Shown: positions 9,452 through 40,336 of the stretch, one piece after another | How positions within the stretch are numbered: the first letter of the stretch is position 1 | How the letters are laid out: every line of letters begins with the position of its first letter | Virus record (IMG/VR): IMGVR_UViG_2534681761_000010 | From: a virus | Taxonomy: Duplodnaviria > Heunggongvirae > Uroviricota > Caudoviricetes | Direction: 5' to 3' (one strand) | Length of the DNA: 44,374 nt | The notes under the pieces: generated by a model | Databases searched by the model: none | What the model saw: only the letters and a program-made list of their open reading frames with translations | What the model was told of the DNA's origin: nothing | Program-made: the position numbers and the translations under genes

Positions 9452-10054
9452 ATGAACACGTCACCGTGGAACAAAGACCGTATCATAGGCCAAAAAAGAC
9501 CACTTCAGATATCTCATATCTGGGGTATCCGAATCCGACTTGAACTGGAAGGTAAAACTCGCGATTTAGCTCTGTTCAACATGGCCCTGGATAGTAAGCT
9601 TCGAGGCTGTGATCTGGTCAAACTCAAAGTATCTGATGTTGCATATGGTGGCTCTGTTTCAAGCAGAGCAACGGTGTTGCAACAGAAAACCGGTAGCCCT
9701 GTTCAATTTGAGATAACCAAAGGGACAAGAGAAGCTGTTGCTGCATTGATACAGCTTAGCAATTTGCACAGTAAAGACTTCTTGTTTCGGTCTAGGGTCG
9801 GAACTAACCAGCACATTTCAACCCGGCAATACAACCGAATCTTTCATGGGGGGGTAGAAAAGCTTGGTCTCGAAGATTCGCTTTACAGCACACATTCCAT
9901 GAGAAGAACAAAACCTTACCTGATCTACAAGAAAACCAAGAATCTCCGGGTGATCCAACTTCTGTTGGGTCATAAGAAACTGGAAAGCACAGTCCGTTAT
10001 CTGGGCATTGAAGTCGATGATGCGTTAGAGATTTCTGAATCGATTGAAGTCTAA
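9452..10054 (+). CDS. Small tyrosine recombinase (FimB/FimE/Xer catalytic-domain size class, about 200 aa)
   Basis: Box I-like ALDSKLRGCDLVKLKVSDV (Arg), HSMRRT (H-x-x-R), LLGHKKLESTVRYLG (His..Tyr); too short to carry the arm-binding domain of phage integrases. Confidence 0.7.
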   Translation: MNTSPWNKDRIIGQKRPLQISHIWGIRIRLELEGKTRDLALFNMALDSKLRGCDLVKLKVSDVAYGGSVSSRATVLQQKTGSPVQFEITKGTREAVAALIQLSNLHSKDFLFRSRVGTNQHISTRQYNRIFHGGVEKLGLEDSLYSTHSMRRTKPYLIYKKTKNLRVIQLLLGHKKLESTVRYLGIEVDDALEISESIEV

Positions 10055-25264: not shown

Positions 25265-27281
25265 TTCCTGGTTCAGGATGAAGGCGGGTCATAAAAGTGA
25301 TGCGGATATTTATATCTACGATGAGATTGGTTTCTGGGGAGTTACGGCGAAGCAGTTTGTCAGTGATCTGAATGCGCTGGGTAATATCACCCACATTAAT
25401 CTCCATATCAATTCACCGGGTGGCGATGTCTTTGAAGGCATCGCCATTTTTAATGCGCTGAAAAATCACGGAGCATCCATCACTGTTTATGTGGATGGCG
25501 TTGCCGCATCCATGGCATCGGTCATTGCAATGGTGGGGGATCCTGTCATCATGCCAGAAAATGCATTCATGATGATCCATAAACCATGGGGAGTGAGTGG
25601 TGGCGATGCGGATGATATGCGCGATTATGCCGACCTGCTTGATAAAGTTGAATCGGTCCTGTTGCCTGCTTATGCGCAAAAAACCGGAAAAACTACCGAT
25701 GAAATTGCCGCCTTGCTGAAGGATGAAACCTGGATGTCTGGTGCCGAATGCCTAGCACACGGATTTGCTGACCAGGTGACACCGGAAGTTAAGGCAATGG
25801 CATGTATTCAGTCAAAACGTACAGAGGAATTTAAAAAAATGCCGGAATCCATCCGAAATATGATTATTCCGCCACGCAACAGTGCAACGCGTGAGCCTGA
25901 AAACAAAAATACTGTATCTCAGACACAGGAGCAGACTACGGCTCAGGTTGTCGCAACCGCGACCAGTACCGTGACCACTGCAAATGCGTCTTCCGCAGAT
26001 GAAAGCAGTATCCGTGCACAGGTGCTGGCTGAGCAAAAAACACGCGTGAGTGGTATTAATGATCTGTTTGGTATGTTTGGCGGGCGTTATCAGACATTGC
26101 AGGCCAGTTGTCTTTCCGATCCGGAGTGCTCGCTTGAGCAGGCTCGCGAGAAGTTACTGAATGAAATGGGTAAGGAATTTTCACCATCAAATAAAAATAC
26201 CCCGTCCCATATTTATGCCGGCAACGGTAATTTTGTGGGGGACGGGATTCGTCAGGCGCTGATGGCGCGTGCCGGATTTGCTGAGCGTGAACAGGATAAC
26301 GTCTATAACGGGATGACCCTGCGTGAATATGCCCGAATGTCACTGACAGAACGTGGTATTGGGGTTTCCGGTTATAACCCGATGCAGATGGTCGGGGCTG
26401 CGTTCACGCACAGCACGTCTGACTTCGGTAATATTCTCCTGGATGTCGCGAACAAAGCCATTCTGCAGGGATGGGAAGAAGCCCCTGAGACTTACGAACA
26501 GTGGACCCGGAAAGGTCAGCTGTCTGATTTTAAAATTGCCCATCGTGTGGGAATGGGGGGCTTCAGTTCTCTGCGTCAGGTGCGTGAAGGGGCTGAATAT
26601 AAGTACGTCACCACCGGAGATAAACAGGCCACGATTGCACTGGCGACTTATGGTGAACTGTTCAGCATCACCCGTCAGGCCATTATCAACGATGATCTGA
26701 ATATGCTGACCGATGTTCCGATGAAACTGGGGCGTGCGGCGAAATCCACGATTGCCGATCTGGTTTATGCCATTCTGACATCTAACCCGAAAATCTCCAC
26801 GGATAATGTGAGCCTGTTCGATAAAGCGAAACATGCAAACGTGCTGGAGAATGCAGTAATGGACGTGGCGTCACTGGATAAAGCCCGCCAGTTGATGCGC
26901 GTTCAGAAAGAGGGCGAGCGTCATCTGAATATTCGTCCTGCGTTCGTACTTGTCCCGACGGCGATGGAATCCGTGGCTAACCAGGTGATCCGTTCTGCCA
27001 GTGTGAAAGGCGCAGATATTAATGCCGGTATTATTAACCCGGTGAAAGATTTTGCGACCGTTATTGCAGAGCCGCGCCTTGATGATAACAGCCAGACCAC
27101 CTTTTATCTGGCTGCGGCGAAAGGTACGGATACCATCGAAGTGGCTTATCTCAATGGGGTGGATACGCCATATATTGATCAGATGGAGGGCTTCAGCGTG
27201 GACGGCGTGACAACGAAAGTGCGTATTGACGCCGGTGTTGCACCAGTTGATCACCGCGGTCTGGTGAAATGTACGGCGTAA
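25209..27281 (+). CDS. Prohead protease (ClpP/S14-like) fused to HK97-fold major capsid protein
   Basis: Strong SD AAAGGAGGTGGTA before ATG at 25209; N-terminal ClpP-like region (INSPGGDVFEG, MAS, MIHKPWG); C-terminal 350 aa capsid-like; single uninterrupted frame. Confidence 0.7.
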   Translation: MLKQNAWFRGEPKASLKNNSWFRMKAGHKSDADIYIYDEIGFWGVTAKQFVSDLNALGNITHINLHINSPGGDVFEGIAIFNALKNHGASITVYVDGVAASMASVIAMVGDPVIMPENAFMMIHKPWGVSGGDADDMRDYADLLDKVESVLLPAYAQKTGKTTDEIAALLKDETWMSGAECLAHGFADQVTPEVKAMACIQSKRTEEFKKMPESIRNMIIPPRNSATREPENKNTVSQTQEQTTAQVVATATSTVTTANASSADESSIRAQVLAEQKTRVSGINDLFGMFGGRYQTLQASCLSDPECSLEQAREKLLNEMGKEFSPSNKNTPSHIYAGNGNFVGDGIRQALMARAGFAEREQDNVYNGMTLREYARMSLTERGIGVSGYNPMQMVGAAFTHSTSDFGNILLDVANKAILQGWEEAPETYEQWTRKGQLSDFKIAHRVGMGGFSSLRQVREGAEYKYVTTGDKQATIALATYGELFSITRQAIINDDLNMLTDVPMKLGRAAKSTIADLVYAILTSNPKISTDNVSLFDKAKHANVLENAVMDVASLDKARQLMRVQKEGERHLNIRPAFVLVPTAMESVANQVIRSASVKGADINAGIINPVKDFATVIAEPRLDDNSQTTFYLAAAKGTDTIEVAYLNGVDTPYIDQMEGFSVDGVTTKVRIDAGVAPVDHRGLVKCTA

Positions 27282-27303
27282 ACGTCGCAGACAACAACTC
27301 TGA

Positions 27304-27325
27304 TGGCCCGTAAGGGCTTTTTTTG
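27304..27325 (+). terminator. Terminator-like hairpin with U-tract after the capsid gene
   Basis: GCCC-GTAA-GGGC followed by TTTTTTT. Confidence 0.4.
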
Positions 27326-27368
27326 TACCTGAAATCAGCCCCGTTCAGGGGGCTTTGCGGAGGCTGTT

Positions 27369-27692
27369 ATGGCAAAGAATTTTGTGGAAGACGGGAAAAC
27401 GGTGGAGATTGTCGCTGGCGCAAATATCAGTAGCGGAGAGCTGGTACAGGTGGGCGATATTTTTGCTGTGGCACTGACCGATATTGCAAAAGGCGAAATT
27501 GGGGACGGCATGACTGAAGGTGTATTTATGCTGCCGAAACTGAAAACGGATGATATGAAAACCGGTAAGAAGGTTTATCTGAAATCCGGAAAAGTTCAGC
27601 TGACGAACAGCGGCTCTGATCCGCTGGTCGGGGTTGTCTGGGCAGATGCCGGAACCAGTGCAGAAGACGTGCCGGTAAAACTCAATGTCTGA
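27369..27692 (+). CDS. Head protein (decoration or head-completion; function uncertain)
   Basis: GGAGG SD; 107 aa; position between capsid and FII-like gene. Confidence 0.4.
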   Translation: MAKNFVEDGKTVEIVAGANISSGELVQVGDIFAVALTDIAKGEIGDGMTEGVFMLPKLKTDDMKTGKKVYLKSGKVQLTNSGSDPLVGVVWADAGTSAEDVPVKLNV

Positions 27693-27960
27693 TCCCTTTT
27701 CCCGGTTGGCAGCCCGTATGGATGCTGTCACGATCAGAAAAATGGGGAAAACGGCCTCGATTAATGATGCGGATATGATTGTGATCCCGGGAGAAACACT
27801 GGCAGAGCTGAATGCGCTGTCCGGATCGGCGGTTTCTCTGGTGGGGTTTTCTTCGGGGTATCGTCCGCGGCGCGGGGACCGCGTTGTTTATGACGGACAA
27901 CAATGGACGGTCACACGGCATGAACGCTTTAACGGTAAACCCGTGATCTTTATTGAGTAA
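27685..27960 (+). CDS. FII: Head-tail joining protein (lambda FII-like)
   Basis: 91 aa; RRGDRVVYDGQQWTVTRHER parallels lambda FII RRGDTLTIGEENFWVDRV. Confidence 0.6.
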   Translation: MSDPFSRLAARMDAVTIRKMGKTASINDADMIVIPGETLAELNALSGSAVSLVGFSSGYRPRRGDRVVYDGQQWTVTRHERFNGKPVIFIE

Positions 27961-27970
27961 AGGGGGATGG

Positions 27971-28549
27971 ATGAAGGGGCTTGAGAATGCTATTCGCAAT
28001 CTGAACAGCCTTGATACCCGTATGGTACCGCAGGCCAGTGCATGGGCGATAAACCGTGTGGCGCAGAAAGCGGTCTCGGTAGCTACCCGGCAGGTTGCGC
28101 AGAATACCGTTGCGGGTGACAACCACGTAAAAGGGATCCCCCTGAAAACGGTGCGTCAGCGCGTCCGGATATTGAAGGCCAGCCCGTCAGGAAAAATGTA
28201 TGCCCGTATCCGGATTAACCGGGGCAACCTGCCAGCCATTAAGCTCGGGGCGGCTCAGGTCAGGCTGGCGCGGCGTGGCGGAAAGCTACGGTACCGGGGA
28301 AGTCTGCTGAAGGTGGGCAAATATCTTTTCCGGGATGCGTTTATTCAGCAACTGGCGAACGGTCGCTGGCATGTGATGCGGCGTATTGACGGCAAAAATC
28401 GTTACCCCATTGATGTGGTGAAAATCCCGTTGTCCGGACCGCTGACGCAGGCATTTACGGAAGCCAGTCGGCATATTGCTGAAACGGAGATGCCGAAACA
28501 ACTGGGTTATGCACTGAAGCAGCAACTGAGGTTATTTCTGACACGATGA
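27971..28549 (+). CDS. Z: Tail completion protein gpZ
   Basis: KGLENAIRNL...AFIQQLANGRWHVMRRIDGKNRYPIDVVKIPL closely parallels lambda Z. Confidence 0.85.
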   Translation: MKGLENAIRNLNSLDTRMVPQASAWAINRVAQKAVSVATRQVAQNTVAGDNHVKGIPLKTVRQRVRILKASPSGKMYARIRINRGNLPAIKLGAAQVRLARRGGKLRYRGSLLKVGKYLFRDAFIQQLANGRWHVMRRIDGKNRYPIDVVKIPLSGPLTQAFTEASRHIAETEMPKQLGYALKQQLRLFLTR

Positions 28550-28947
28550 ACAGACATACAAAAATCCGTCAGGCGGTACTGGCACGTCTGTGTGAGGAGT
28601 GTGGCGAGTGCGCCACATTTTTTGACGGGCTTCCGGCCTTTATTGATGCACAGGAGTTGCCCGCTGTGGCGGTCTGGCTGAGCGATGCCCGGTATACCGG
28701 AAAAATGACAGATGAGGACGACTGGCAGGCCGTTCTGCATATCGCTGTGTTTATCCGTGCGCAGGCACCGGATTCAGAGCTGGATGAGTGGATGGAAAAT
28801 AGCATTTATCCGGCGCTGAGGCATATACCGGCGCTTTCCGGGCTGATCGACACCATGACACCGCAGGGGTTTAACTACCAGCGCGATGATGAGATGGCGA
28901 CGTGGGCGATGGCGGAAATCACGTATCAGATCGCCTACACGAACTGA
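28546..28947 (+). CDS. U: Tail terminator protein gpU
   Basis: ATFFDG..PAVAVWL..ARYTG..WQAVLHI..PDSELDEWME..IPALSGLI parallels lambda U. Confidence 0.9.
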   Translation: MNRHTKIRQAVLARLCEECGECATFFDGLPAFIDAQELPAVAVWLSDARYTGKMTDEDDWQAVLHIAVFIRAQAPDSELDEWMENSIYPALRHIPALSGLIDTMTPQGFNYQRDDEMATWAMAEITYQIAYTN

Positions 28948-28969
28948 ATAAATAATGTAAGGAGGAGTG

Positions 28970-29740
28970 ATGTCCACACCGAATCCACTGGAGAAAACGA
29001 AAGGCGCAGGGACAACATTCTGGATGTATACCGGGATGGGAGATCCGTTTGCGTCTGCATTGTCAGACACGGACTGGCTGCGACTGGCAATGGGGAAGGA
29101 TTTGCAGCCGGGCGAAATGACGGCTGATGCGGAAGACGACACGTATCTTGATGATGAGAATGCGGACTGGAAGAGCACATCTCAGGGCCAGAAAACCGCT
29201 GGCGATACGTCTGCCACACTGGCATGGCGTCCGGGCGACAGCGGACAGAAAAAACTGGTTGAGTTGTTTTATTCCGGCGAGGTTTGTGCGTTCCGCATTC
29301 TGTATCCCAACGGAACGGTTGATGTTTTTCGTGGCTGGCTTAGTTCGCTGGGCAAGGCGGTGACGTCAACGGAAGTGATGACCAGGACCATCAAAATCAC
29401 CGGGATTGGGCGTCCACACCTGGCGGAAGAGAGCCAGGAGGTGGTCAGCGTCACTGGTGTGACGGTGACACCGACGGCGGTGACACTCCAGCCTGGTGAA
29501 ATGTCCGTACTGAAGTTTGCGCTTGTACCGGAAAACGCCTCGGATAAAACGCTCACGGTGTTTTCCACGGATCCGCAGACAGCAACGGTAAGCCTGAGCG
29601 GCCTTGTGGCTACGGTATCTGCCCGCCAGGAAGGGACGGTCAGTATTGTGGGTATGAGCGGTGATGGCCGTACGGGGCAGGTGGTCACAGTGACCGTGGT
29701 CTCTGCTGAGGAGAAGGGTACCGGACGCGCCAGGGGATAA
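28970..29740 (+). CDS. V: Major tail protein gpV (with C-terminal Big_2-like domain)
   Basis: PNP..KGAGTT.W.Y.G.GDP...LSD.DW.RLA..KDL.PGE.TA....DSYLDDE.ADW....QGQK.AGDTS.TLAW.PG parallels lambda V. Confidence 0.9.
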   Translation: MSTPNPLEKTKGAGTTFWMYTGMGDPFASALSDTDWLRLAMGKDLQPGEMTADAEDDTYLDDENADWKSTSQGQKTAGDTSATLAWRPGDSGQKKLVELFYSGEVCAFRILYPNGTVDVFRGWLSSLGKAVTSTEVMTRTIKITGIGRPHLAEESQEVVSVTGVTVTPTAVTLQPGEMSVLKFALVPENASDKTLTVFSTDPQTATVSLSGLVATVSARQEGTVSIVGMSGDGRTGQVVTVTVVSAEEKGTGRARG

Positions 29741-29761
29741 CCGGGCCGTATTTATCATCAG

Positions 29762-29784
29762 CCCCGGTTCGCCGGGGTTTTTTA
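29762..29784 (+). terminator. Intrinsic terminator with UUCG tetraloop between V and G
   Basis: CCCCGG-TTCG-CCGGGG followed by TTTTTTATT. Confidence 0.6.
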
Positions 29785-29800
29785 TTCGGGGAGAAGAGTG

Positions 29801-30190
29801 ATGTTTCTGAAACAGGATACGTTTAATTACGGCAATCAGTCGGTGGTACTGAATGAACTGTCTGGTCTGCAGCGTGTGGAATACCTGGCTTATGCCCGTG
29901 AACGCGCGGCGCAGTTTGATGAGGCTTCTGCAGGAATGGAAGAAGGGGCCCGCCAGATTGCTTTCATGGAAATGGGGATGGACATCAACGCCTGGCTGGT
30001 TTCCCGTTCGCTGTGGAATGCCGACCAGTCTCAGAATGTGGCGGCGCTTTTTTCCTCCGTGCGCGTGACATGGTCCTGGGATGCGCTGGGGATGGCGGCG
30101 GAAAGCATTCTGGCGCTGAGCGGTATGGCACTGACAGTGGCGACAGAGGGGGATGACGTGAAGGAGGTGCTGACGCCGGAAAAGTCCTGA
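29801..30190 (+). CDS. G: Tail assembly chaperone gpG
   Basis: MFLK....F.....V.L.ELS.LQR.E.LA matches lambda G N-terminus. Confidence 0.85.
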   Translation: MFLKQDTFNYGNQSVVLNELSGLQRVEYLAYARERAAQFDEASAGMEEGARQIAFMEMGMDINAWLVSRSLWNADQSQNVAALFSSVRVTWSWDALGMAAESILALSGMALTVATEGDDVKEVLTPEKS

Positions 30191-30513
30191 CGCAGGAAAT
30201 GCAGTTTGTCATGCGGCTGGCCCGGGAGTTCCGGCGGGGCGACTGGCGGCGAATGCTGTCAGAAATGTCAGCCACAGAACTGGGAGAGTGGGGGGATTAT
30301 TTCCGGCGGCAGAGTTTCAGTGATGTGTGGCTGGATGCGCAATTTGCCACACTGAAAACGCTGATTGTGCAGATGGTTTCCGGAAAAACCGTGGCGGCGG
30401 ATATGTTCAGCCTGTTGCCTTCAGAGACAGAAGCGCCCGTCCGGACAGATGAAGAGCTGATGTTTCTGGGGGAAGGTATCGCGGGAGGAATAAGAATTGA
30501 GCCAGATAGCTGA
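30157..30513 (+). CDS. T: gpT reading frame (expressed as G-T fusion by -1 frameshift near 30178-30184)
   Basis: Open -1 frame begins at 30157 and overlaps the last 11 codons of G; same arrangement as lambda G/GT. Confidence 0.7.
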   Translation, partial: REGGADAGKVLTQEMQFVMRLAREFRRGDWRRMLSEMSATELGEWGDYFRRQSFSDVWLDAQFATLKTLIVQMVSGKTVAADMFSLLPSETEAPVRTDEELMFLGEGIAGGIRIEPDS

Positions 30514-33500
30514 CCTTGTTATTGATTTAAGTGTTGATACGGCTGATTTTAAGGAACAGCTTCCGCGTATTAAAGCGCAACTCAATGGTACCGCCAGCGA
30601 AGCGGCGCGCGCAGAAGCGCGGGTCAGACAGTTTGAAGCGAGTCAGAAGCAGGCGGCGACTACCGCGGTGAAACAGACTCAGGCACTGGCGGGGAATGCG
30701 CAGGCGCATGTTTCGTTGTCAGAGGATGTGGAACAGACCCGTCAGCGACTTGATGCCCTGAACCGGAAAATGCGTGAGGAGCAGGCGCAGGCGGCGGCAC
30801 TGGCTGCTGCTCAGGATAAAGCCGCTGCTGCATTTTATCGTCAGATTGACAGTGTGAAACAGGCGGGGGCCGGACTGCAGGAGCTGCAGCGTATTCAGCA
30901 GCAGGTCCGTCAGGCCAGAAACAATGGTGGCATCGCGCAGCAGGATTATCTGGCGTTAATCTCCGAAGTGACGGCAAAAACCCGCGTGCTGGCTCAGGCT
31001 GAAGAATCCGCCACCCGCCAGAAGACGGCCTTTATCCGGCGGCTGAAGGAGCAGGTATCCGCTCAGAATCTTTCATCCACGGAGCTGCTCAGGGCAAAAG
31101 CCGCGCAGCTGGGTGTCAGTAGTGCGGCTGAGGTGTATATCAGCAAAATGGAAAAAGCCGGGAAGGTCACGCATTCGCTGGGGCTGAAAAGTGCGGCGGC
31201 CCGCCAGGAGATAGGTGTTCTGATAGGTGAAATTGCCCGGGGTAATTTCGGTGCGCTTCGTGGCTCCGGGATCACCCTGGCTAACCGTGCCGGATGGATT
31301 GACGCGCTGATGTCCCCGAAAGGCATGGCTGTCGGCGGGGTTATCGGTGGACTCACTGCTGCTGTTGTCGGGCTGGGAAAGGCCTGGTATGACGGTCAGA
31401 AGGAGGGGGAGGTGTTTAATCGTCAGCTGGCGTTGACAGGGCATTATGCGGGCATCACTACCGGACAGCTGTGGACTCTCAGTCGCGCCATTTCCGGGAA
31501 TGGTATCACGCAACATGCTGCAGCCAGTGCGCTGGCTCAGGCGGTTGGCAGCGGTGCATTTCGTGGAGGTGATATCGCCATGGTGGCGAAAGCTGCCGCG
31601 CAAATGGAAAGTTCAGTGGGGCAGTCTGTCAGCGACACCATCAGTCAGTTTAAGCGACTGAAGGATGACCCGGTAAATGCAGCCAGGACGCTGGATAATG
31701 AACTGCATTTCCTGACTGCCACCCAGCTTGAACAAATCCGTGTTCTCGGGGAACAGGGGCGTGCCAGTGATGCTGCCCGGATCGCCATGTCAGCGCTGGC
31801 AGAGGAAACCGGTAAACGCACATCTGATATTGATAATAATCTCAATGCGCTGGGCAGTACGCTGCAAACCTTATCTGACTGGTGGAAGCAGTTCTGGGAT
31901 GCCGCCATGAATATCGGGCGTAATGATTCCCTTGATGCGCAGATTGCGGCGCTGCAGGAAAAAATTCAGCGTGCGAAAAAATCGCCCTGGACAAATGCAT
32001 CCACCACAGTGGAATACGACCAGCAGCGCCTTGATGAACTTCAGGAGAAAAAGCGCCAGAAAGATTTACAGGATGCAAAAGAGCAGGCAGAGCGGAATTA
32101 TCAGGAGCAACAGAAACGCCGGAATGCTGAAAATGCCGCGCTGAACCGGATGAACGAAACGGAAGCGGCACGACATCAGCGTGAAATTGCGCGTATTAAT
32201 GCCATGCAGTACGCAGATCAGTCGGTCAGGGACGCAGCGATACAGCGTGAAAATAAACGTCACAAAAAAGCCATTAAGAAAGAAACGCCTGCCACCCGTA
32301 ATGATGAGGCCACCCGGTTATTACTGCAGTACAGCCAGCAACAGGCGCAGGTGGAGGGGCAGATCGCCGCCGCCAGACAGTCCGCGGGACTGACCACGAA
32401 AAAAATGACGGAAGCGCATAAGCAGCTTCTGGCCCTGCAGCAGCGTATCAGTGATTTAGCCGGTAAAAAGCTGACGGCAGATGAAAAAAGCGTGCTGGCG
32501 CATAAGGATGAACTGATTCAGGCGCTGACGCTGCTGGATGCAAAACAGCAGGAGCTGCAGAAGCAGACGGCGCTGAATGACCTTAAGAAAAAATCCATTC
32601 AGCTTGCCAGCCAGCTGGCGGAAGAGGAGCGGGTTCTGCGTCAGCAACATGACCTGGATATCGCCACGACAGGGATGGGGGATAAACAGCGTCAGCGATA
32701 CCAGGCACAGTTCAGTCTGCAACAAAAATATCAGCAGCAGCGGGAACAGTTGGAGCGTGACAGTAAGCGGAAAGGAACATATGGCACAGATGAATACCGG
32801 AATGCTGAGCAGACGCTGACAGACAGTCTTAACCGGCAACTGAACGAAAACAGACGCTACTGGCAGGAGCAGGAACTGATGCAGGCAGACTGGAAAAACG
32901 GTGCCATGCGGGCGTTTCAGAATTTTACGGCAGATGCGGATAATGCGGCAGGAACTGCTGAGCAGATGTTTACAGCGGCATTTAACAGTGCAGGTAATGC
33001 ACTGGCGACGTTCTGCACGACAGGTAAACTGAATTTCAAATCCTTTACCGCCTCGCTTCTTTCCGACCTGGCAAAAATCATGGCGCAGATGGCCATTATG
33101 CAGGCGGTGAAGGGGATTGGTTCGGCGTTTGGCTGGGGGAGCGCATCCGCTGCCAGTGTGACGCCCAATGCAGATGGCGGTGTTTATCAGTCTGCGGATT
33201 TGAGCCGTTACAGTGGCTCAGTGGTTAACCGCCCGACGTTTTTTGCCTTTGCAAAAGGCGCGGGGGTGATGGGAGAAGCGGGACCTGAAGCCATTCTGCC
33301 ACTGCGTCGTGGTGCCGACGGTAAGCTGGGCGTTGTGGCGGATATTGGTGGTTCAGGCATGGTGATGTTTGCCCCGCAGTACAACATCGCGATCAATAAC
33401 GACGGTACGAACGGGCAGATAGGTCCGGCTGCCCTGAAGGTGGTTTATGACCTCGGGAAAAAAGCTGCAGCGGACTTTATGCAACAGCAGTCCCGTGATG

Positions 33501-33529
33501 GCGGTCAGTTAAGCGGAGTGTATCGGTAA
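30497..33529 (+). CDS. H: Tail tape measure protein gpH
   Basis: 1010 aa, Ala/Gln-rich coiled coil; C-terminal region parallels lambda H; followed by M. Confidence 0.9.
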   Translation: MSQIADLVIDLSVDTADFKEQLPRIKAQLNGTASEAARAEARVRQFEASQKQAATTAVKQTQALAGNAQAHVSLSEDVEQTRQRLDALNRKMREEQAQAAALAAAQDKAAAAFYRQIDSVKQAGAGLQELQRIQQQVRQARNNGGIAQQDYLALISEVTAKTRVLAQAEESATRQKTAFIRRLKEQVSAQNLSSTELLRAKAAQLGVSSAAEVYISKMEKAGKVTHSLGLKSAAARQEIGVLIGEIARGNFGALRGSGITLANRAGWIDALMSPKGMAVGGVIGGLTAAVVGLGKAWYDGQKEGEVFNRQLALTGHYAGITTGQLWTLSRAISGNGITQHAAASALAQAVGSGAFRGGDIAMVAKAAAQMESSVGQSVSDTISQFKRLKDDPVNAARTLDNELHFLTATQLEQIRVLGEQGRASDAARIAMSALAEETGKRTSDIDNNLNALGSTLQTLSDWWKQFWDAAMNIGRNDSLDAQIAALQEKIQRAKKSPWTNASTTVEYDQQRLDELQEKKRQKDLQDAKEQAERNYQEQQKRRNAENAALNRMNETEAARHQREIARINAMQYADQSVRDAAIQRENKRHKKAIKKETPATRNDEATRLLLQYSQQQAQVEGQIAAARQSAGLTTKKMTEAHKQLLALQQRISDLAGKKLTADEKSVLAHKDELIQALTLLDAKQQELQKQTALNDLKKKSIQLASQLAEEERVLRQQHDLDIATTGMGDKQRQRYQAQFSLQQKYQQQREQLERDSKRKGTYGTDEYRNAEQTLTDSLNRQLNENRRYWQEQELMQADWKNGAMRAFQNFTADADNAAGTAEQMFTAAFNSAGNALATFCTTGKLNFKSFTASLLSDLAKIMAQMAIMQAVKGIGSAFGWGSASAASVTPNADGGVYQSADLSRYSGSVVNRPTFFAFAKGAGVMGEAGPEAILPLRRGADGKLGVVADIGGSGMVMFAPQYNIAINNDGTNGQIGPAALKVVYDLGKKAAADFMQQQSRDGGQLSGVYR

Positions 33530-33858
33530 TGGAGACGTTTCACTGGAAAATTCGTCCTGATATGACAGTGGCATCGGAACCGAAGGTGTTGACGGTAAAG
33601 CTGGGGGATGGCTATGAACAGCGGCGACCGGCAGGACTGAATAATTTATTGTCTGTTTACAGTGTGACTATCCGGATACGTAAAGGAGAACATCAGTCAC
33701 TGGAGGATTTTCTGGCGCGGCATGGCGGTGTCAGGGCGTTTCAGTGGGTGCCGCCTTATGGCTGGAAACCAGTCAGGGTGGTTTGTCGTAAATGGTCGAC
33801 ACGCGTTGGGGCGTTATGGGTGACTGTAACGGCAGATTTTGAGCAGGTGGTGAACTGA
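33529..33858 (+). CDS. M: Tail tip protein gpM
   Basis: FHWKIRPDM.VAS.P.V..V..GDGY.QR.PAGLN..L..YSVT...EFEQVVN parallels lambda M. Confidence 0.9.
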   Translation: METFHWKIRPDMTVASEPKVLTVKLGDGYEQRRPAGLNNLLSVYSVTIRIRKGEHQSLEDFLARHGGVRAFQWVPPYGWKPVRVVCRKWSTRVGALWVTVTADFEQVVN

Positions 33859-34556
33859 TGCAGGATATACAGCAGGAAACACTGAATGAATGCACCCGTG
33901 CGGAGCAGTCGGCCAGCGTGGTGCTCTGGGAAATCGATCTGACAGAGGTCGGTGGAGAACGTTATTTTTTCTGTAATGAGCAGAACGAAAAAGGTGAGCC
34001 GGTCACCTGGCAGGGGCGACAGTATCAGGCGTATCCCATTCAGGGGAGTGGTTTTGAACTGAATGGCAAGGGCAGTGCTGCCCGTCCGACACTGACGGTT
34101 TCTAACCTGCACGGCATGGTCACCGGGATGGCGGAAGACCTGCAGAGTCTGGTCGGCGGAACGGTGGTCCGGCGTAAGGTTTACGCCCGTTTTCTGGATG
34201 CGGTGAACTTCGTCAACGGAAACAGTGACGCCGATCCGGAGCAGGAGGTGATCAGCCGCTGGCGCATCGAGCAGTGCAGCGAACTGAGCGCGGTCAGTGC
34301 CTCTTTTGTACTGTCCACGCCGACGGAAACGGACGGCGCTGTTTTTCCGGGACGTATCATGCTGGCCAACACCTGCACCTGGACCTATCGCGGCGATGAG
34401 TGCGGTTATAGCGGTCCGGCGGTCGCGGATGAATATGACCAGCCGACGTCCGATATCACGAAGGATAAATGCAGCAAATGCCTGAGTGGCTGTAAGTTTC
34501 GCAATAACGTCTGCAACTTTGGCGGCTTCCTTTCCATTAACAAATTTTCGCAGTAA
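33858..34556 (+). CDS. L: Tail tip protein gpL
   Basis: Near-identical to lambda L as recalled (MQDIQQETLNECTRAEQSASVVLWEIDLTEVGGERYFFCNEQ...). Confidence 0.9.
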   Translation: MQDIQQETLNECTRAEQSASVVLWEIDLTEVGGERYFFCNEQNEKGEPVTWQGRQYQAYPIQGSGFELNGKGSAARPTLTVSNLHGMVTGMAEDLQSLVGGTVVRRKVYARFLDAVNFVNGNSDADPEQEVISRWRIEQCSELSAVSASFVLSTPTETDGAVFPGRIMLANTCTWTYRGDECGYSGPAVADEYDQPTSDITKDKCSKCLSGCKFRNNVCNFGGFLSINKFSQ

Positions 34557-34560
34557 TCCC

Positions 34561-35304
34561 ATGACAGAGACAGAATCAGCGATTCTGGCGCACGCCCGGC
34601 GATGTGCGCCAGCGGAGTCGTGCGGCTTCGTGGTGAGAACGCCGGAGGGGGAAAGATATTTTCCCTGCGTGAATATCTCCGGTGAGCCGGAGGATTATTT
34701 CCGGATAGCTCCGGAGGACTGGCTGCAGGCAGAAATGCAGGGGGAGATTGTGGCGCTGGTCCACAGTCATCCCGGTGGTCTGCCCTGGCTGAGTGATGCT
34801 GACCGGCGGCTGCAGGTGCAGAGTGATTTGCCGTGGTGGCTGGTCTGCCGGGGGGCGATTCATAAGTTCCGCTGTGTGCCGCATCTCACCGGGCGGCGCT
34901 TTGAGCACGGGTCGACGGACTGTTACACGCTGTTCCGGGATGCTTATCATCTGGCGGGGATTGAGATGCCGGATTTTCATCGCGGGTATGACTGGTGGCG
35001 TAACGGTCAGAATCTCTATCTGGATAATCTGGAGGCCACAGGGCTGTATCAGGTGCCGTTGTCAGCGGCGCAGCCGGGCGATGTGCTGCTGTGCTGTTTT
35101 GGTTCATCGGTGCCGAATCATGCCGCCATTTACTGTGGTGACAGCGAGCTGCTGCACCATATTCCTGAACAACTGAGCAAACGAGAGAGGTACACCGACA
35201 AATGGCAGCGACGCACACACTCCCTCTGGCGTCACCGGGCATGGCACGCATCTGCCTTTACGGGGATTTACAACGATTTGGCCGCCGCATCGACCTTCGA
35301 GTGA
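34561..35304 (+). CDS. K: Tail tip assembly protein gpK (JAB/MPN plus NlpC/P60-like)
   Basis: ATG at 34561 inside the 34486 ORF; MTETESAILAHARRCAPAESCGFVV and HSHPGG motif. Confidence 0.85.
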   Translation: MTETESAILAHARRCAPAESCGFVVRTPEGERYFPCVNISGEPEDYFRIAPEDWLQAEMQGEIVALVHSHPGGLPWLSDADRRLQVQSDLPWWLVCRGAIHKFRCVPHLTGRRFEHGSTDCYTLFRDAYHLAGIEMPDFHRGYDWWRNGQNLYLDNLEATGLYQVPLSAAQPGDVLLCCFGSSVPNHAAIYCGDSELLHHIPEQLSKRERYTDKWQRRTHSLWRHRAWHASAFTGIYNDLAAASTFE

Positions 35305-35849
35305 AAACGGGGTCCGAAGCCATCCGGGCGCTGGCCATGCAGAACCCGGCGTTTCGTCAGAAACTGAGCGACGGCTGGTACCAGGTACGCATTGCCGGGC
35401 GTGATGCAGGTGAAACCGAATTGTCTGCCCGTCTTAATGAGCCGCTGGCAAATGGTGCCGTGATCCACATCGTGCCGCATCTGGCGGGAGCTAAAAGTGG
35501 CGGTGTGTTTCAGGTGGTGCTGGGGGCGGCGCTGATTGCGGTGGCATGGTGGAACCCTGTGGGCTGGCTGGGTGCCGCGGCTGTATCGGGCATGTATGCG
35601 GCAGGGGCCAGTATGATCCTGGGCGGAGTGGCGCAGATGCTGGCACCGAAAGCCAGGACGCCCACGGCAGCAAGTACAGATAACGGCAAACAGAACACCT
35701 ATTTCTCCTCACTGGATAACATGGTTGCCCAGGGCAATGTTCTGCCCGTTCTGTACGGTGAAATGCGCGTGGGGTCGCGGGTGGTCTCTCAGGAGATCAG
35801 CACGGCAGACGAAGGGGATGGTGGTCAGGTTGTGGTGATTGGTCGCTGA
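35202..35849 (+). CDS. I: Tail tip assembly protein gpI
   Basis: MAATHTLPLASPGMARICLYGDLQRFGRRIDLRVKTG... and C-terminal NGKQNTYFSSLDNMVAQGNVLPVLYGEMRVGSRVVSQEIS as in lambda I; long overlap with K frame. Confidence 0.85.
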   Translation: MAATHTLPLASPGMARICLYGDLQRFGRRIDLRVKTGSEAIRALAMQNPAFRQKLSDGWYQVRIAGRDAGETELSARLNEPLANGAVIHIVPHLAGAKSGGVFQVVLGAALIAVAWWNPVGWLGAAAVSGMYAAGASMILGGVAQMLAPKARTPTAASTDNGKQNTYFSSLDNMVAQGNVLPVLYGEMRVGSRVVSQEISTADEGDGGQVVVIGR

Positions 35850-35909
35850 TGCAAAATGTTTTATGTGAAACCGCCTCCGGGCGGTTTTGTCGTTTATGGA
35901 GCGTGATGA

Positions 35910-38900
35910 ATGGGTAAAGGCAGCAGTAAGGGGCATACCCCGCGCGAAGCGAAGGACAACCTGAAGTCCACGCAGTTGCTGAGTGTGATCGATGCCATCA
36001 GCGAAGGGCCGGTTGAAGGTCCGGTGGATGGATTAAAAAGCGTGCTGCTGAACAGTACGCCGGTGCTGGACAGTGAGGGGAATACCAATATATCCGGCGT
36101 CACGGTGGTGTTCCGGGCCGGTGAGCAGGAGCAGACACCGCCGGAGGGATTTGAATCCTCCGGCTCCGAGACGGTGCTGGGTACGGAAGTGAAATATGAC
36201 ACGCCGATCACCCGGACCATCACGTCGGCAAACATCGACCGACTGCGCTTTACCTTCGGTGTGCAGGCACTGGTGGAAACCACCTCAAAGGGGGACCGGA
36301 ATCCGTCGGAAGTCCGCCTGCTGGTTCAGATACAGCGTAATGGTGGCTGGGGGACGGAAAAAGACATCACCATTAAAGGCAAAACCACCTCACAGTATCT
36401 GGCCTCGGTGGTGGTGGGTAACCTGCCGCCGCGCCCGTTCAATATCCGGATGCGCAGGATGACGCCGGACAGCACCACAGACCAGCTGCAGAACAAAACG
36501 CTCTGGTCGTCATACACCGAAATCATCGATGTGAAACAGTGCTACCCGAACACGGCACTGGTCGGCGTACAGGTGGATTCGGAGCAGTTCGGCAGCCAGC
36601 AGGTGAGCCGTAATTATCATCTGCGCGGGCGTATTCTGCAGGTGCCGTCGAACTATAACCCGCAGACTCGGCAATACAGCGGTATCTGGGACGGAACGTT
36701 TAAGCCAGCATACAGCAATAACATGGCCTGGTGTCTGTGGGATATGCTGACCCATCCACGCTACGGCATGGGGAAACGTCTTGGTGCGGCGGATGTGGAC
36801 AAATGGGCGCTGTATGTCATCGGCCAGTACTGCGACCAGTCAGTGCCGGACGGCTTTGGCGGCACGGAGCCGCGAATCACCTGTAATGCGTACCTGACCA
36901 CACAGCGCAAGGCGTGGGATGTGCTCAGTGATTTCTGCTCGGCGATGCGCTGTATGCCGGTATGGAACGGGCAGACGCTGACGTTCGTGCAGGACCGACC
37001 GTCGGATAAGGGGTGGACCTATAACCGCAGTAATGTGGTGATGCCGGATGATGGCGCGCCGTTCCGCTACAGCTTCAGCGCCCTGAAGGACCGCCATAAT
37101 GCCGTTGAGGTGAACTGGATTGACCCGGACAACGGCTGGGAGACGGCGACAGAGCTTGTTGAAGATACGCAGGCCATTGCCCGTTACAGTCGTAATGTCA
37201 CGAAGATGGATGCCTTTGGCTGTACCAGCCGGGGGCAGGCACACCGCGCCGGGCTGTGGCTGATTAAAACGGAACTGCTGGAGACGCAGACCGTGGATTT
37301 CAGCGTGGGTGCTGAAGGGCTTCGCCATGTACCGGGCGATGTCATTGAAATCTGCGATGATGACTATGCCGGTATCAGCACCGGTGGTCGCGTGCTGGCG
37401 GTGAACAGCCAGACCAGGACGCTGACGCTCGACCGTGAAATCACGCTGCCATCCTCCGGTACCACGCTGATAAGCCTGGTTGACGGTCAGGGTAATCCGG
37501 TCAGCGTGGAGGTCCAGTCCGTCACCGACGGCGTGAAGGTAAAAGTGAGCCGTGTTCCTGACGGTGTTGCTGAATACAGCGTATGGGGGCTGAAGTTGCC
37601 GACGCTGCGCCAGCGACTGTTCCGCTGCGTGAGTATCCGTGAGAACGACGACGGCACGTATGCCATCACCGCCGTGCAGCATGTGCCGGAAAAAGAGGCC
37701 ATCGTGGATAACGGGGCGCACTTTGACGGCGACCAGAGCAGCACGGTGAATGGTGTCACGCCGCCAGCGGTGCAGCACCTGACCGCCGAAGTCACCGCAG
37801 ACAGCGGGGAATATCAGGTGCTGGCGCGCTGGGACACGCCGAAGGTGGTGAAGGGCGTGAGCTTCCTGCTCCGTCTGACCGTAACAGCGGATGACGGCAG
37901 TGAGCGGCTGGTCAGCACGGCCCGGACGACGGAAACCACATACCGCTTCACGCAACTGGCGCTGGGGAACTACAGGCTGACAGTCCGGGCGGTAAATGCG
38001 TGGGGACAGCAGGGCGATCCTGCCACCACCACCTTCCGGATTAACGCACCTGCAAAACCCGCCACCATTGAGCTGACGCCGGGGTATTTTCAGATAACGG
38101 CGGTCCCGCGTCTTGCGGTGTATGACCCGACGGTACAGTTTGAATTCTGGTTCTCAGAAAAACGCATCACGAACACAGCACAGGTGGAAAAATCTGCCCG
38201 TTATCTGGGGACAGGCAGTCAGTGGACTGTCCAGGGGAGCCGGATTAAGCCGGGGACGGATTTCTGGTTTTACGTGCGAAGCGTCAACCTGGTGGGAAAA
38301 TCTGCTTTTGTGGAAGCCAGCGGGCAGCCCAGCAATGATGGTGAAGGGTATCTGGAAATTTTCCGGGGGCTGATAGATGAGACGCTTCTTGGTCAGGCAC
38401 TGAAAGAGCGCATTGATGCTTCAGCGCTGCGTACGGAGGTCACGCAACTGGAAGAAGACATCCGTCAGCGGATGGACACGGATATCGCAGAAGTGACCCG
38501 GAAAATCGGGAAGGCGGAAAACACTCTCACGCAGCTGGTTGCGAAAAAGAATGAGGACCAGGCACTGGCCATCGCGCAGGTGAACCAGAAAGTGGACCGG
38601 GTGAGCAGTGAAATCTCACAGACTGTCAGCCAGGGGCAGTCAGAAAACGCCCGACAGATAGCACAGGTCCGCCAGTACGTGGATAAAAAAGGGAGTGAAA
38701 TTACCTCGACCACGGATAAAAAGCTGGGTGACCAGGCCGTGACCATACAGCAAATCCAGCGGGTTCAGTCAGACACGCGCAATGAGCTGAATGCCATGTA
38801 TATGCTGAAGGTGCAGAAAACAAAAAACGGTATTCCCTATGTGGCTGGGATTGGCGCGGGGATTGAGGATGTTGATGGTCAGACGCTGAGCAGTATTCTG

Positions 38901-39611: not shown

Positions 39612-39678
39612 ATTTTATAACCCCAATACGGGCGCCAGAAATGGCGCCTTTTTTATTGCAGAAAAGCGAGAGGTAATT

Positions 39679-40278: not shown

Positions 40279-40309
40279 TTAGCCAGGTAACACAGTGTTA
40301 TGACAGCAT

Positions 40310-40336
40310 GCCTGTTCAATCAGGCGGGCTTTTTTG
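40310..40336 (+). terminator. Terminator-like hairpin after lom
   Basis: GCCTG-TTCAAT-CAGGC followed by GGGCTTTTTT. Confidence 0.4.

What the first reader, a model, noticed from the sequence alone, without database searches (positions are those of the whole stretch)
30157..30201. G-T programmed -1 frameshift site is non-canonical (CCG GAA AAG rather than lambda G GGA AAG)
The T frame is open only from 30157 and G stops at 30190, so the shift must occur in these last 11 codons. The only shifty element is GAA-AAG at 30179-30184, where the A-site Lys tRNA can re-pair on AAA but the P-site Glu tRNA re-pairs imperfectly on GGA. This suggests a lower or differently tuned G to G-T ratio than in lambda.
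Basis: partly seen in the sequence, partly recalled or inferred. Interest (0 to 1): 0.45.

Follow-up and report, generated by a model that had tools for sequence, protein, structure and literature searches.

The report
Common GGAAAAG tail-chaperone frameshift site
This is the ribosome-slip site that lets a lambda-like E. coli prophage make a little fused G-T tail-assembly chaperone; its GGAAAAG sequence differs by one base from lambda's, but it is the commonest form in this gene family and was already annotated in phage N15, so it is ordinary, apart from a perfect ribosome-binding-like sequence just upstream.

Summary
Gene G (29798/29801..30190) is a lambda gpG homologue. The -1 frame opens at 30157, after a TGA at 30154-56, and encodes a gpT domain up to 30513. 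G stops at 30188-90. The only in-frame slippery element in the 34-nt overlap is G_GAA_AAG (30178-30184), one base different from lambda's G_GGA_AAG at the homologous position.

It is not unusual. Among 271 related loci (127 distinct G proteins, 26 clusters at 70% identity), 20 clusters use G_GAA_AAG and only 3 use lambda's heptamer. phi80, HK225, mEp213, cdtI, Gifsy-1/2 and Fels-1 all have it. The N15 RefSeq record labels GGAAAAG as the slippery sequence.

Selection acts on the nucleotides. Lys is AAG in 26 of 28 representatives (35% elsewhere in G). Glu is always GAA. Heptamer base 1 is G in 126 of 127 genes, although the preceding codon encodes five different amino acids. This fits two-tRNA slippage, with tRNA-Glu re-pairing on GGA through a G·U pair.

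Published in vitro work used this exact heptamer as a poorly slippery control, so a lower intrinsic rate is plausible but unmeasured.

One new lead: a perfect 9-nt Shine-Dalgarno match (AAGGAGGTG, 30161-30169) lies at dnaX-like spacing, in this lineage only. No 3' structure was found.

The parts
29798..30190 (+). Gene G, the tail assembly chaperone (lambda gpG homologue). The ORF starts at GTG 29798. RefSeq relatives start at the ATG that corresponds to 29801. The stop is TGA at 30188-30190.
   Evidence: Pfam PF06894 Phage_TAC_2 at 5e-35. The gene lies between the V-like tail tube gene (28967..29740) and the tape measure gene (30497..33529). PGAP annotates it as gpG in 97%-identical E. coli prophages.
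30154..30156 (+). TGA in the -1 frame. It closes that frame upstream and so sets the 5' limit of the shift window.
   Evidence: Direct reading of the sequence and ORF analysis.
30157..30513 (+). Open -1 frame that encodes the T domain of the G-T fusion. After the shift, translation resumes at GTC 30184-30186.
   Evidence: Pfam PF06223 Phage_tail_T at 4e-12. Among 26 cluster representatives, conservation in this -1 frame starts immediately 3' of the heptamer.
30178..30184 (+). Slippery heptamer G_GAA_AAG. The P-site Glu codon GAA re-pairs on GGA, and the A-site Lys codon AAG re-pairs on AAA.
   Evidence: It is the only in-frame Z_ZZN element in the overlap. It is homologous to lambda's G_GGA_AAG by -1 frame alignment (GKV). 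It is conserved in 20 of 26 gpG clusters. Codon-choice and position-1 bias point to nucleotide-level selection. The identical heptamer is annotated as the slippery sequence in N15.
30161..30169 (+). Orphan Shine-Dalgarno-like 9-mer AAGGAGGTG, a perfect complement to the 16S 3' end. It is a candidate 5' stimulator of the shift. This role is inferred and is specific to this lineage.
   Evidence: There are only two exact copies in the 44 kb; the other, at 25197, lies immediately upstream of a 692-codon ORF that opens at 25203. The duplex energy is -13.0 kcal/mol, and only 0.05% of positions in 25300-41000 are as strong. No ATG, GTG or TTG lies at an initiation distance that opens a real ORF. It sits 8 nt 5' of the heptamer. 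Its GGAG core is 11 nt away, against 10 nt in dnaX (PMC6924986 construct) and a published stimulatory range of 9-14 nt (PMC5009743).
30185..30197 (+). Small hairpin UCCUG-ACG-CAGGA that directly abuts the heptamer. It is probably not a stimulator.
   Evidence: Folding. With zero spacer it would lie inside the mRNA channel while the heptamer is being decoded. It is absent from most other lineages.

Best explanation
This is the programmed -1 ribosomal frameshift site of a lambda-type tail assembly chaperone gene pair. Most ribosomes translate G to the TGA at 30188 and make a protein of about 129 aa. A small fraction slip back one base on G_GAA_AAG (30178-30184). A-site tRNA-Lys (anticodon mnm5s2UUU) moves from AAG to AAA. 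P-site tRNA-Glu moves from GAA to GGA, keeping G:C at codon position 1 and A:U at position 3, with a G·U pair at position 2. Translation then continues at GTC 30184 in the -1 frame to 30513. The product is a G-T fusion of about 238 aa with the junction ...EVLTPEK|VLTQEMQFVMRLAREF...

By analogy with lambda, the G part binds the tape measure protein, and the T part recruits the tail tube protein; neither ends up in the virion.

This heptamer is the standard one for the family, not a peculiarity of this phage. It is probably less slippery in itself than lambda's. In this lineage only, a perfect 9-nt Shine-Dalgarno-like sequence 8 nt upstream probably pairs with 16S rRNA in the elongating ribosome and raises the shift rate, as in dnaX.

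Shown here: gene identities, frames, uniqueness of the site, and conservation with nucleotide-level selection. Inferred: the tRNA re-pairing geometry, the level of shifting, and the effect of the SD-like sequence.
For: - Gene identities and order V-G-T-H.
- The frames and the 34-nt overlap.
- The heptamer aligns with lambda's experimentally established G_GGA_AAG through the -1 frame GKV (lambda facts from PMC5009743).
- In relatives the overlap shrinks to 16 nt (L194), 19 nt (L211) and 25 nt (cdtI group), and it always contains GG[A/G]AAAG.
- 20 of 26 clusters at 70% identity carry G_GAA_AAG.
- At the site, Lys is AAG in 26 of 28 representatives, against 35% of Lys codons elsewhere in G. Glu is GAA in 22 of 22, against 57% elsewhere.
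- Heptamer position 1 is G in 126 of 127 distinct genes, although the preceding codon is CCG, GCG, GTG, ACG or CTG; those codon families end in G only 32-68% of the time elsewhere. This argues for P-site re-pairing rather than A_AAG alone.
- Information content peaks on the heptamer. The 5' flank is variable, and the 3' flank is conserved with -1 frame periodicity.
- The N15 record labels GGAAAAG 'slippery sequence for -1 translational frameshift'.
- Precedents for imperfect P-site re-pairing next to A_AAG: IS3 C_CAA_AAG, IS1222 G_CGA_AAG and B. subtilis cdd A_CGA_AAG (PMC5009743).
- A precedent for GAA to GGA re-pairing through G:U is GGGGGAA in actinophages (PMC10885494).
- SD-like sequence: with spacing rules from PMC5009743.
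Against: - There is no direct evidence of a G-T fusion protein for this phage or for any G_GAA_AAG phage in the literature I could search.
- In a reconstituted E. coli system, AUG GAA AAG gave mainly 0-frame product at all EF-G concentrations (PMC6924986).
- The A_AAG tetramer without a stimulator is near background in vivo, at about 0.15% (PMC4066793). The intrinsic rate may therefore be well below lambda's roughly 1:30.
- No stable or conserved 3' structure was found (z between -0.9 and +1.7 in 18 of 19 lineages, the exception being L025 at -2.2). There was no Rfam hit.
- The strong SD-like element is confined to the window lineage. Across other G_GAA_AAG lineages, SD-likeness at this register is unremarkable (median background percentile 0.21). 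Internal SD-like sequences are not rare in this window. A second G-rich SD-like stretch (30145-30153) lies just 5' and might compete.
Confidence: 0.85

Rival explanations
1. Single-tRNA slippage. Only tRNA-Lys slips on the A_AAG tetramer, either in the A site or in the P site while the A site waits for the UCC decoder. The upstream GG plays no part. The protein product would be identical.
For: A_AAG is the most shift-prone tetramer in E. coli (PMC4066793). Natural sites such as IS1222 G_CGA_AAG and B. subtilis cdd A_CGA_AAG have no P-site re-pairing (PMC5009743). [quoted passage not shown] Rare family variants C_GCA_AAG (L213) and G_GCA_AAA (L239) lack good P-site re-pairing.
Against: Heptamer position 1 is G in 126 of 127 distinct G genes even though the amino acid encoded by that codon varies (P, A, V, T, L). 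GCG is used 49 of 49 times at the site, against 32% G-ending elsewhere in G. Position 2 is always G, and position 3 is only A or G. This pattern is expected if the P-site tRNA must re-pair on GGA or GGG, and it is not expected for a bare tetramer.
Confidence: 0.1
2. There is no frameshift. T is made as a separate protein from ATG 30199, as PGAP and most phage records annotate it, possibly by re-initiation after termination at TGA 30188.
For: An ATG at 30199 lies 8 nt past the G stop. PGAP and several GenBank records call a separate 104-aa T CDS there. The ATG is present in the window and cdtI groups.
Against: At the aligned position the codon is CTG (Leu) in Gifsy-1, Fels-1, N15, phi80, lambda and most other lineages. 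Conservation in the -1 frame begins right after the heptamer, upstream of that ATG. The only purine-rich stretch (AGGA, 30194-97) is 1 nt from the ATG, and the strong SD is 29 nt away. The heptamer shows nucleotide-level selection that a simple gene boundary would not need. In lambda the product of -1 frameshifting is the gpGT fusion (PMC5009743). From my own recollection of Levin et al. 1993, which I did not read here, T is found only as that fusion.
Confidence: 0.04
3. The AAGGAGGTG 9-mer is a by-product of the Lys-Glu-Val codons in the variable acidic tail of G. It has no selected role, and the frameshift runs on the heptamer alone, as in other lineages.
For: The 9-mer is found only in the window lineage, whose members are at least 97% identical, so conservation carries no weight. 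18 of 21 G_GAA_AAG representatives have no notable SD-like element at this register. Several strong internal SD-like sequences occur elsewhere in the window's genes. The region is rich in GAR/GGN codons.
Against: It is the joint strongest anti-SD match in 44 kb. It lies within the published 9-14 nt stimulatory range, next to the only recoding site in the window (PMC5009743). Anti-SD pairing at this spacing stimulates -1 shifting at A_AAA_AAG in dnaX for physical reasons, whether or not it was selected. G_GAA_AAG lineages as a group are more SD-like at this register than G_GGA_AAG lineages (one-sided Mann-Whitney p = 0.016, not corrected for phylogeny).
Confidence: 0.5
4. Transcriptional slippage on the A-run gives an mRNA with one A fewer, and this mRNA encodes the fusion.
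For: The site contains a homopolymer of four A residues.
Against: From general knowledge, productive RNA polymerase slippage in bacteria needs runs of about 7-9 identical bases, and four is far too short. Conservation of the flanking G, G and G positions fits tRNA re-pairing and not polymerase slippage.
Confidence: 0.01

Closest known systems
Phage lambda G / G-T programmed -1 frameshift (G_GGA_AAG; Levin, Hendrix and Casjens 1993; Xu, Hendrix and Duda 2004, 2013, 2014, as cited in PMC5009743)
   Same: The protein families are the same (PF06894 G and PF06223 T), and so is the gene order V-G-T-H. The direction of the shift is the same. The position of the heptamer in the -1 frame alignment (GKV) is homologous. 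No conserved 3' structure is evident in either. The expected role is the same: a minor fusion chaperone at a fixed ratio.
   Different: Heptamer position 3 is A, not G, so the P-site codon is GAA (tRNA-Glu) rather than GGA (tRNA-Gly). Re-pairing therefore needs a second-position G·U. The G stop follows one codon after the heptamer, against five codons in lambda. The overlap is 34 nt, against 64 nt. A perfect SD-like 9-mer lies upstream, and lambda has none at this register.
Phage N15 genes 14/15 (also phi80, HK225, mEp213, cdtI, mEp460, Gifsy-1/2, Fels-1)
   Same: The heptamer is the identical GGAAAAG in the same frame and place. In N15 it is annotated 'slippery sequence for -1 translational frameshift'. 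The Gifsy-1/2 records mention the frameshift.
   Different: The G proteins are only 31-65% identical to the window's. None of these phages has the 9-nt SD-like sequence; the Ayreon subgroup has GAGGTG and the cdtI subgroup GAGGCG at the same place. In N15, phi80, HK225 and mEp213 the stop is 15 nt after the heptamer.
IS3 (C_CAA_AAG), IS1222 (G_CGA_AAG) and B. subtilis cdd (A_CGA_AAG): -1 frameshifting centred on A_AAG with imperfect P-site re-pairing
   Same: The A-site AAG to AAA slip by the single E. coli tRNA-Lys is the driver. The P-site codon cannot re-pair canonically. IS3 has the same X_XAA_AAG shape, with a tRNA of the same s2U34 class (that last point is general knowledge).
   Different: IS3 depends on a strong 3' pseudoknot (5.6% with it and about background without; PMC4066793). 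No 3' structure is present here. The C·U mismatch in IS3 is worse than the G·U here.
E. coli dnaX -1 frameshift (SD-like AGGGAG, 10 nt, A_AAA_AAG, 3' stem-loop)
   Same: Both have an internal SD-like sequence about 10 nt 5' of a heptamer that ends in A_AAG (the core GGAG is 11 nt away here, 10 nt in dnaX).
   Different: The SD match is longer here (9 nt). The heptamer is weaker. There is no 3' stem-loop. The expected efficiency is a few per cent or less, against about 50% for dnaX. The SD-like sequence is not conserved beyond one lineage.
PRFect 'twofour' (XXYYYY) and 'fivetwo' (GGGGGAA) slippery motifs in annotated phage tail chaperone frameshifts (PMC10885494)
   Same: GGAAAA fits the twofour pattern. 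The GAA to GGA re-pairing through G:U is the explanation those authors offer for GGGGGAA.
   Different: Those motifs were catalogued mainly from actinophage annotations and were not tested. In GGGGGAA the Glu codon is in the second (3') codon position of the motif, whereas here it is in the first, the P site.

Membership tests
Lambda-type gpG/gpGT tail assembly chaperone with programmed -1 frameshift | The upstream ORF is a gpG-family chaperone located between the tail tube gene and the tape measure gene | tested here: met
   PF06894 at 5e-35. The flanking genes are PF16461 (tail tube) and PF06791/PF09718 (tape measure).
Lambda-type gpG/gpGT tail assembly chaperone with programmed -1 frameshift | The T domain is encoded in the -1 frame, overlaps the 3' end of G, and has no conserved start of its own | tested here: met
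   PF06223 at 4e-12 in the -1 frame, which is open from 30157. The ATG at 30199 is replaced by CTG in most lineages, and -1 frame conservation starts at the heptamer.
Lambda-type gpG/gpGT tail assembly chaperone with programmed -1 frameshift | A slippery sequence lies in the overlap in the correct register and is conserved among homologues | tested here: met
   G_GAA_AAG at 30178-84. 20 of 26 clusters have it, and 3 of 26 have G_GGA_AAG at the same place. Codon-choice bias supports selection.
Lambda-type gpG/gpGT tail assembly chaperone with programmed -1 frameshift | Both G and a minor G-T fusion are produced (about 30:1 in lambda), and both are needed for tail assembly | not testable with these tools
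   This needs protein or reporter data. None was found in the literature for this heptamer type.
Canonical X_XXY_YYZ slippery heptamer | The first three bases are identical, so the P-site tRNA re-pairs with only a wobble-position change | tested here: not met
   The first three bases are G, G, A. The P-site codon GAA would re-pair on GGA with a second-position G·U. The site works like a heptamer but does not fit the strict pattern.
Canonical X_XXY_YYZ slippery heptamer | The A-site codon YYZ re-pairs cognately on YYY | tested here: met
   AAG moves to AAA. This is the most efficient A-site pair in E. coli (PMC4066793).
dnaX/IS911-type SD-stimulated -1 frameshift | An internal sequence is complementary to the 16S 3' end | tested here: met
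   AAGGAGGTG gives 9 of 9 pairs and -12.6 to -13.0 kcal/mol. It is one of two exact copies in the window.
dnaX/IS911-type SD-stimulated -1 frameshift | The spacing to the shift site is about 9-14 nt | tested here: inconclusive
   The gap is 8 nt from the 3' end of the 9-mer, 10 nt from GGAGG and 11 nt from GGAG. dnaX GGAG is 10 nt away. The result depends on how the spacing is counted, but the register is within 1 nt of dnaX.
dnaX/IS911-type SD-stimulated -1 frameshift | The SD-like element is conserved among homologous frameshift sites | tested here: not met
   It occurs only in the window lineage. Other lineages have at best 4-6 nt matches (GAGGTG, GAGGC, AGGAG) or none.
dnaX/IS911-type SD-stimulated -1 frameshift | A 3' stem-loop or pseudoknot lies 5-9 nt after the heptamer | tested here: not met
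   Folding z-scores are about 0 in the window and in 18 of 19 lineages. No element is shared. There was no Rfam hit.

The most novel reading that the evidence does not exclude
The perfect 9-nt Shine-Dalgarno-like sequence (30161-30169) may be a selected, dnaX-style 5' stimulator that this lineage recruited to raise shifting on an intrinsically weak G_GAA_AAG heptamer. That would give natural sister lineages (9-nt SD; GAGGTG; GAGGCG; none) with graded G:GT ratios on an otherwise identical site. More broadly, most lambda-family tail chaperone genes rely on a heptamer that biochemists use as a non-slippery control, with no RNA stimulator. This could mean that an unrecognised stimulator operates, for example the conserved S/T-P/A-E-K nascent peptide or the E-site NCG codon.
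Probability: 0.3. Interest if true: 0.4.

Novelty: new member of a known kind. Interest (0 to 1): 0.2.

Why it matters
The value is mainly practical.

1. Annotation. PGAP and nearly all phage records examined call T as a free-standing CDS and miss the fusion. Searches restricted to strict X_XXY_YYZ patterns, as in PMC4066793, cannot see the heptamer that most of this family uses.

2. Mechanism. Selection on heptamer position 1 across 127 genes is comparative evidence that a P-site tRNA re-pairing through a second-position G·U contributes to programmed frameshifting. The sequence concerned is one that in vitro work treats as 'one tRNA only'.

3. Tuning. Lambda's G:GT ratio is known to be critical. 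Lineages with the same heptamer but different upstream SD strength offer a simple test of how that ratio is set.

None of this changes the accepted picture of tail chaperone frameshifting.

Tried and rejected
- 3' stimulatory RNA structure. Folding 30185-30300 gave z = -0.94. The 60 nt after the heptamer in 19 lineages gave z between -0.7 and +1.7, except L025 at -2.2, with no shared element. The 5-bp hairpin at 30185-30197 abuts the heptamer, and I rejected it on spacing.
- Rfam scan of 29600-30700 at E up to 1: nothing.
- SD-like stimulator as a family-wide feature: rejected. The median background percentile was 0.21, and only 3 of 21 representatives were at or below 0.1.
- Looking for records that annotate a slippage join at GGAAAAG. 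None was found among cdtI, Ayreon, Tritos, HannyBb, mEp460, PhiR40_1, phi80, HK225, mEp213 or RefSeq E. coli. Only N15 marks the heptamer, and O276 (lambda type) carries a join.
- Looking for a G-T fusion protein in the 5.8-billion-protein set. Only three singleton proteins carry both domains, and all are in-frame fusions through internal deletions, not the PEK|VL junction.
- Literature. Xu et al. 2004 (Mol Cell) and Licznar et al. 2003 (EMBO J), which may hold direct data on NNA_AAG and on phage heptamers, are not in the held library. Full-text searches for GGAAAAG with 'phage' and 'slippery' found only the EF-G paper.
- Collision or termination-pause effects of the nearby UGA. I considered these and set them aside because the stop position varies among lineages (0, 3 or 15 nt after the heptamer).
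Full report
**1. What is in the window**

The + strand carries a lambda-like tail module. It comprises a V-like tail tube gene (28967..29740; PF16461 plus an Ig-like domain), gene G (29798/29801..30190; PF06894, lambda gpG, 5e-35), a -1 frame ORF with a gpT domain (PF06223, 4e-12), a tape measure gene (30497..33529) and an M-like gene.

The zero frame of G ends ...GTG AAG GAG GTG CTG ACG CCG GAA AAG TCC TGA, with the stop at 30188-30190. The -1 frame has TGA at 30154-30156, so it opens at 30157 and runs to 30513. Every coordinate in the finding is correct.

Within the 34-nt overlap, the only in-frame Z_ZZN element is A_AAG, inside G_GAA_AAG at 30178-30184. In-frame A_AAG occurs at about 0.44% of codon junctions in the window's long ORFs. 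At least one among ten junctions is therefore expected about 4% of the time. Of five in-frame slippery heptamers checked in the window, only this one leads into a long -1 ORF (109 aa). The others, including a canonical G_GGA_AAG inside the tape measure gene at 31375, meet a stop after 3-8 codons.

**2. Relation to lambda**

When the -1 frames are aligned (window A-GKV-L, lambda C-GKV-F), the two heptamers sit at the homologous position. They differ by one base: GGAAAAG here and GGGAAAG in lambda.

**3. How common the heptamer is**

I collected relatives from three sources:
- annotated phage and E. coli records;
- one genome per species in GTDB;
- IMG/VR, using three scans seeded with different family members, including lambda-type ones.

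This gave 271 loci with complete G and T frames, 127 distinct G proteins and 26 single-linkage clusters at 70% identity. The heptamers are distributed as follows:

| Heptamer | Clusters |
|---|---|
| G_GAA_AAG | 20 |
| G_GGA_AAG (lambda type) | 3 |
| C_GCA_AAG | 1 |
| G_GAA_AAA followed directly by TAG | 1 |
| G_GCA_AAA followed directly by TAG | 1 |

Named phages with G_GAA_AAG are N15, phi80, HK225, mEp213, cdtI, mEp460, Ayreon, Tritos, Gifsy-1, Gifsy-2 and Fels-1. Relatives at about 75% DNA identity are present in roughly 1,296 chromosome or plasmid records from complete E. coli genomes. Every member of that group that I fetched has the heptamer.

The RefSeq record of N15 carries a misc_feature 'slippery sequence for -1 translational frameshift' at 10027..10033, and that sequence is GGAAAAG. 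The heptamer type is therefore already recognised. It is the norm for the family, and lambda is the minority form.

**4. Evidence that the shift happens on the heptamer, and that it acts as a heptamer**

(a) Across lineages the overlap between the -1 frame opening and the G stop shrinks to 16 nt (L194), 19 nt (L211) and 25 nt (cdtI group). It always contains GG[A/G]AAAG.

(b) In an ungapped alignment of 26 cluster representatives anchored on the site, information content peaks on the heptamer. The 5' flank (the acidic tail of G) is variable. The 3' flank is conserved with the periodicity of the -1 frame (x-L-x-x-E-L-x-F-V/A-M/L-x-L-A). The T reading frame is thus under selection from the heptamer onward, upstream of the ATG at 30199 that annotators use.

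(c) Codon choice at the site is strongly biased. Lys is AAG in 26 of 28 representatives, against 35% of Lys codons elsewhere in the same genes. Glu is GAA in 22 of 22, against 57% elsewhere.

(d) Heptamer position 1, the third base of the preceding codon, is G in 126 of 127 distinct genes. That codon encodes Pro, Ala, Val, Thr or Leu, and those codon families end in G only 32-68% of the time elsewhere in G.

Point (d) would not be expected if only the A_AAG tetramer mattered. It is expected if the P-site tRNA-Glu must re-pair on GGA, with G:C at position 1, G·U at position 2 and A:U at position 3. These counts are not phylogenetically independent. The pattern nonetheless holds across lineages that share only 30-40% protein identity.

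**5. Expected efficiency**

Lambda makes G and G-T at about 30:1, and the ratio matters for tail assembly (PMC5009743). Three published results bear on the site here:
- In E. coli, A_AAG alone is near background (about 0.15%) and reaches 5.6% only with the IS3 pseudoknot. G_GGA_AAG is among the best heptamers (PMC4066793).
- Peng et al. 2019 (PMC6924986) used exactly AUG GAA AAG as the 'less slippery' control against AUG GGA AAG. With GAA AAG they saw mainly 0-frame product at all EF-G concentrations.
- Natural precedents for imperfect P-site re-pairing next to A_AAG are IS3 (C_CAA_AAG), IS1222 (G_CGA_AAG) and B. subtilis cdd (A_CGA_AAG) (PMC5009743). PRFect lists a 'twofour' motif and explains GGGGGAA by GAA to GGA re-pairing through G:U (PMC10885494).

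It remains untested: I found no in vivo measurement for any phage with this heptamer.

**6. Stimulators**

I found no 3' structure. The 116 nt after the heptamer fold no better than shuffles (z = -0.94). The first 60 nt in 19 lineages give z close to 0, with no common element. Rfam finds nothing. The small hairpin at 30185-30197 abuts the heptamer and would be inside the ribosome during decoding.

AAGGAGGTG at 30161-30169 is a perfect 9-nt complement of the 16S 3' end.
- Only two exact copies exist in the 44 kb. The other (25197) lies immediately upstream of a 692-codon ORF that opens at 25203, which I read as the ribosome-binding site of the 739-aa protease-capsid ORF.
- The one at 30161 has no usable start codon after it.
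- Its duplex energy (-13.0 kcal/mol) is matched at only 0.05% of positions in 25300-41000.
- It ends 8 nt before the heptamer. Its GGAG core is 11 nt away, against 10 nt in dnaX (sequence in PMC6924986) and a stated stimulatory range of 9-14 nt (PMC5009743).

On physical grounds it should promote -1 slippage. However, it is confined to the window lineage: two E. coli genomes (97.4% identical over the region queried) and several IMG/VR contigs (G protein 99-100% identical). Sister groups have GAGGTG or GAGGCG at the same place, L053 has nothing, and most G_GAA_AAG lineages show no SD-likeness beyond background. G_GAA_AAG lineages as a group are somewhat more SD-like at this register than G_GGA_AAG lineages (one-sided p = 0.016, not corrected for phylogeny). 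Strong internal SD-like sequences also occur elsewhere in the window. I rate a real stimulatory effect at about even odds, and selection for it lower.

**7. Rival readings**

Independent initiation of T at ATG 30199 is what PGAP and most submitters annotate. Four observations argue against it:
- The ATG is CTG in most lineages.
- Conservation in the -1 frame starts upstream of it.
- It has no SD at a workable distance.
- The heptamer carries selection that a plain gene boundary would not need.

Single-tRNA slippage on A_AAG would give the same protein, but it is disfavoured by the position-1 result. Transcriptional slippage on four A residues is implausible (general knowledge).

A search of the large protein collection for the predicted 238-aa fusion returned only three singleton proteins that carry both domains. 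All are in-frame fusions created by internal deletions, not the PEK|VL junction. This reflects gene callers that do not model slippage, and it is not evidence against the fusion.

**8. Verdict**

It is a new member of a known kind. The heptamer is the family's usual one and is already annotated in N15. The only new lead is the lineage-specific perfect SD-like sequence at dnaX-like spacing, which can be tested with a simple reporter series. Interest is low to modest.

Noticed in passing
window 29760-29779 (hairpin) plus the T-run to about 29789: A terminator-like GC hairpin with a T-run lies in the 57-nt gap between the tail tube gene V (ends 29740) and G. The same position is annotated as a rho-independent terminator or stem-loop in the N15, mEp460, Ayreon and HK225 records. 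This suggests conserved partial termination that lowers G/T/H expression relative to V.
   Followed up: partly
L216:overlap (G_GAA_AAA TAG), L239 (G_GCA_AAA TAG), L213 (C_GCA_AAG): These are rare family variants of the shift site. In two lineages the heptamer ends in AAA and is followed directly by the G stop codon TAG, which could mean stop-codon-assisted P-site slippage. One lineage has a bare A_AAG with no P-site re-pairing.
   Followed up: no
window 30173-30178 and the homologous positions in L001-L290: The zero-frame peptide just before the shift is conserved as S/T-P/A-E/G-K across the family, lambda included (VSAGK). The E-site codon is nearly always CCG or GCG. Part of this is the requirement for G at position 1. 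The rest could reflect a nascent-peptide or E-site effect, or simply linker function.
   Followed up: partly
window 31375-31381 and 23481-23487: A canonical G_GGA_AAG lies in frame inside the tape measure gene, and an A_AAA_AAG lies in frame in an upstream gene. Slipping at either would terminate after 3 or 8 codons. They are probably incidental sources of a little truncated product.
   Followed up: partly
window 30145-30153: A second G-rich SD-like stretch, AGAGGGGGA (-11.1 kcal/mol), lies 8 nt 5' of the AAGGAGGTG 9-mer. According to the literature, competing upstream SD-like sequences are usually absent 5' of stimulatory ones.
   Followed up: no
L026-L039 (GTDB genome contigs): G-T overlap regions identical to phage lambda's, on short contigs, several at about 1x coverage, in assemblies of unrelated bacteria (Neobacillus, Oceanobacillus, Pseudomonas, Kitasatospora, Shewanella, Leeuwenhoekiella and others). 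This is almost certainly lambda DNA contamination of sequencing libraries, not real prophages.
   Followed up: no
P0001, P0002, P0003: These are singleton database proteins in which the G and T domains of cdtI-type phages are fused in frame by internal deletions of different sizes. They are either defective prophages or assembly errors.
   Followed up: partly
window 30497-30513: The tape measure gene starts with TTG at 30497, preceded by GGAGGA, and overlaps the last 17 nt of the T frame. PGAP uses the same start in the 97%-identical E. coli prophages.
   Followed up: no
window 30182-30186 (junction Lys|Val): The predicted fusion junction PEK|VL is a tryptic cleavage site.
   Followed up: yes
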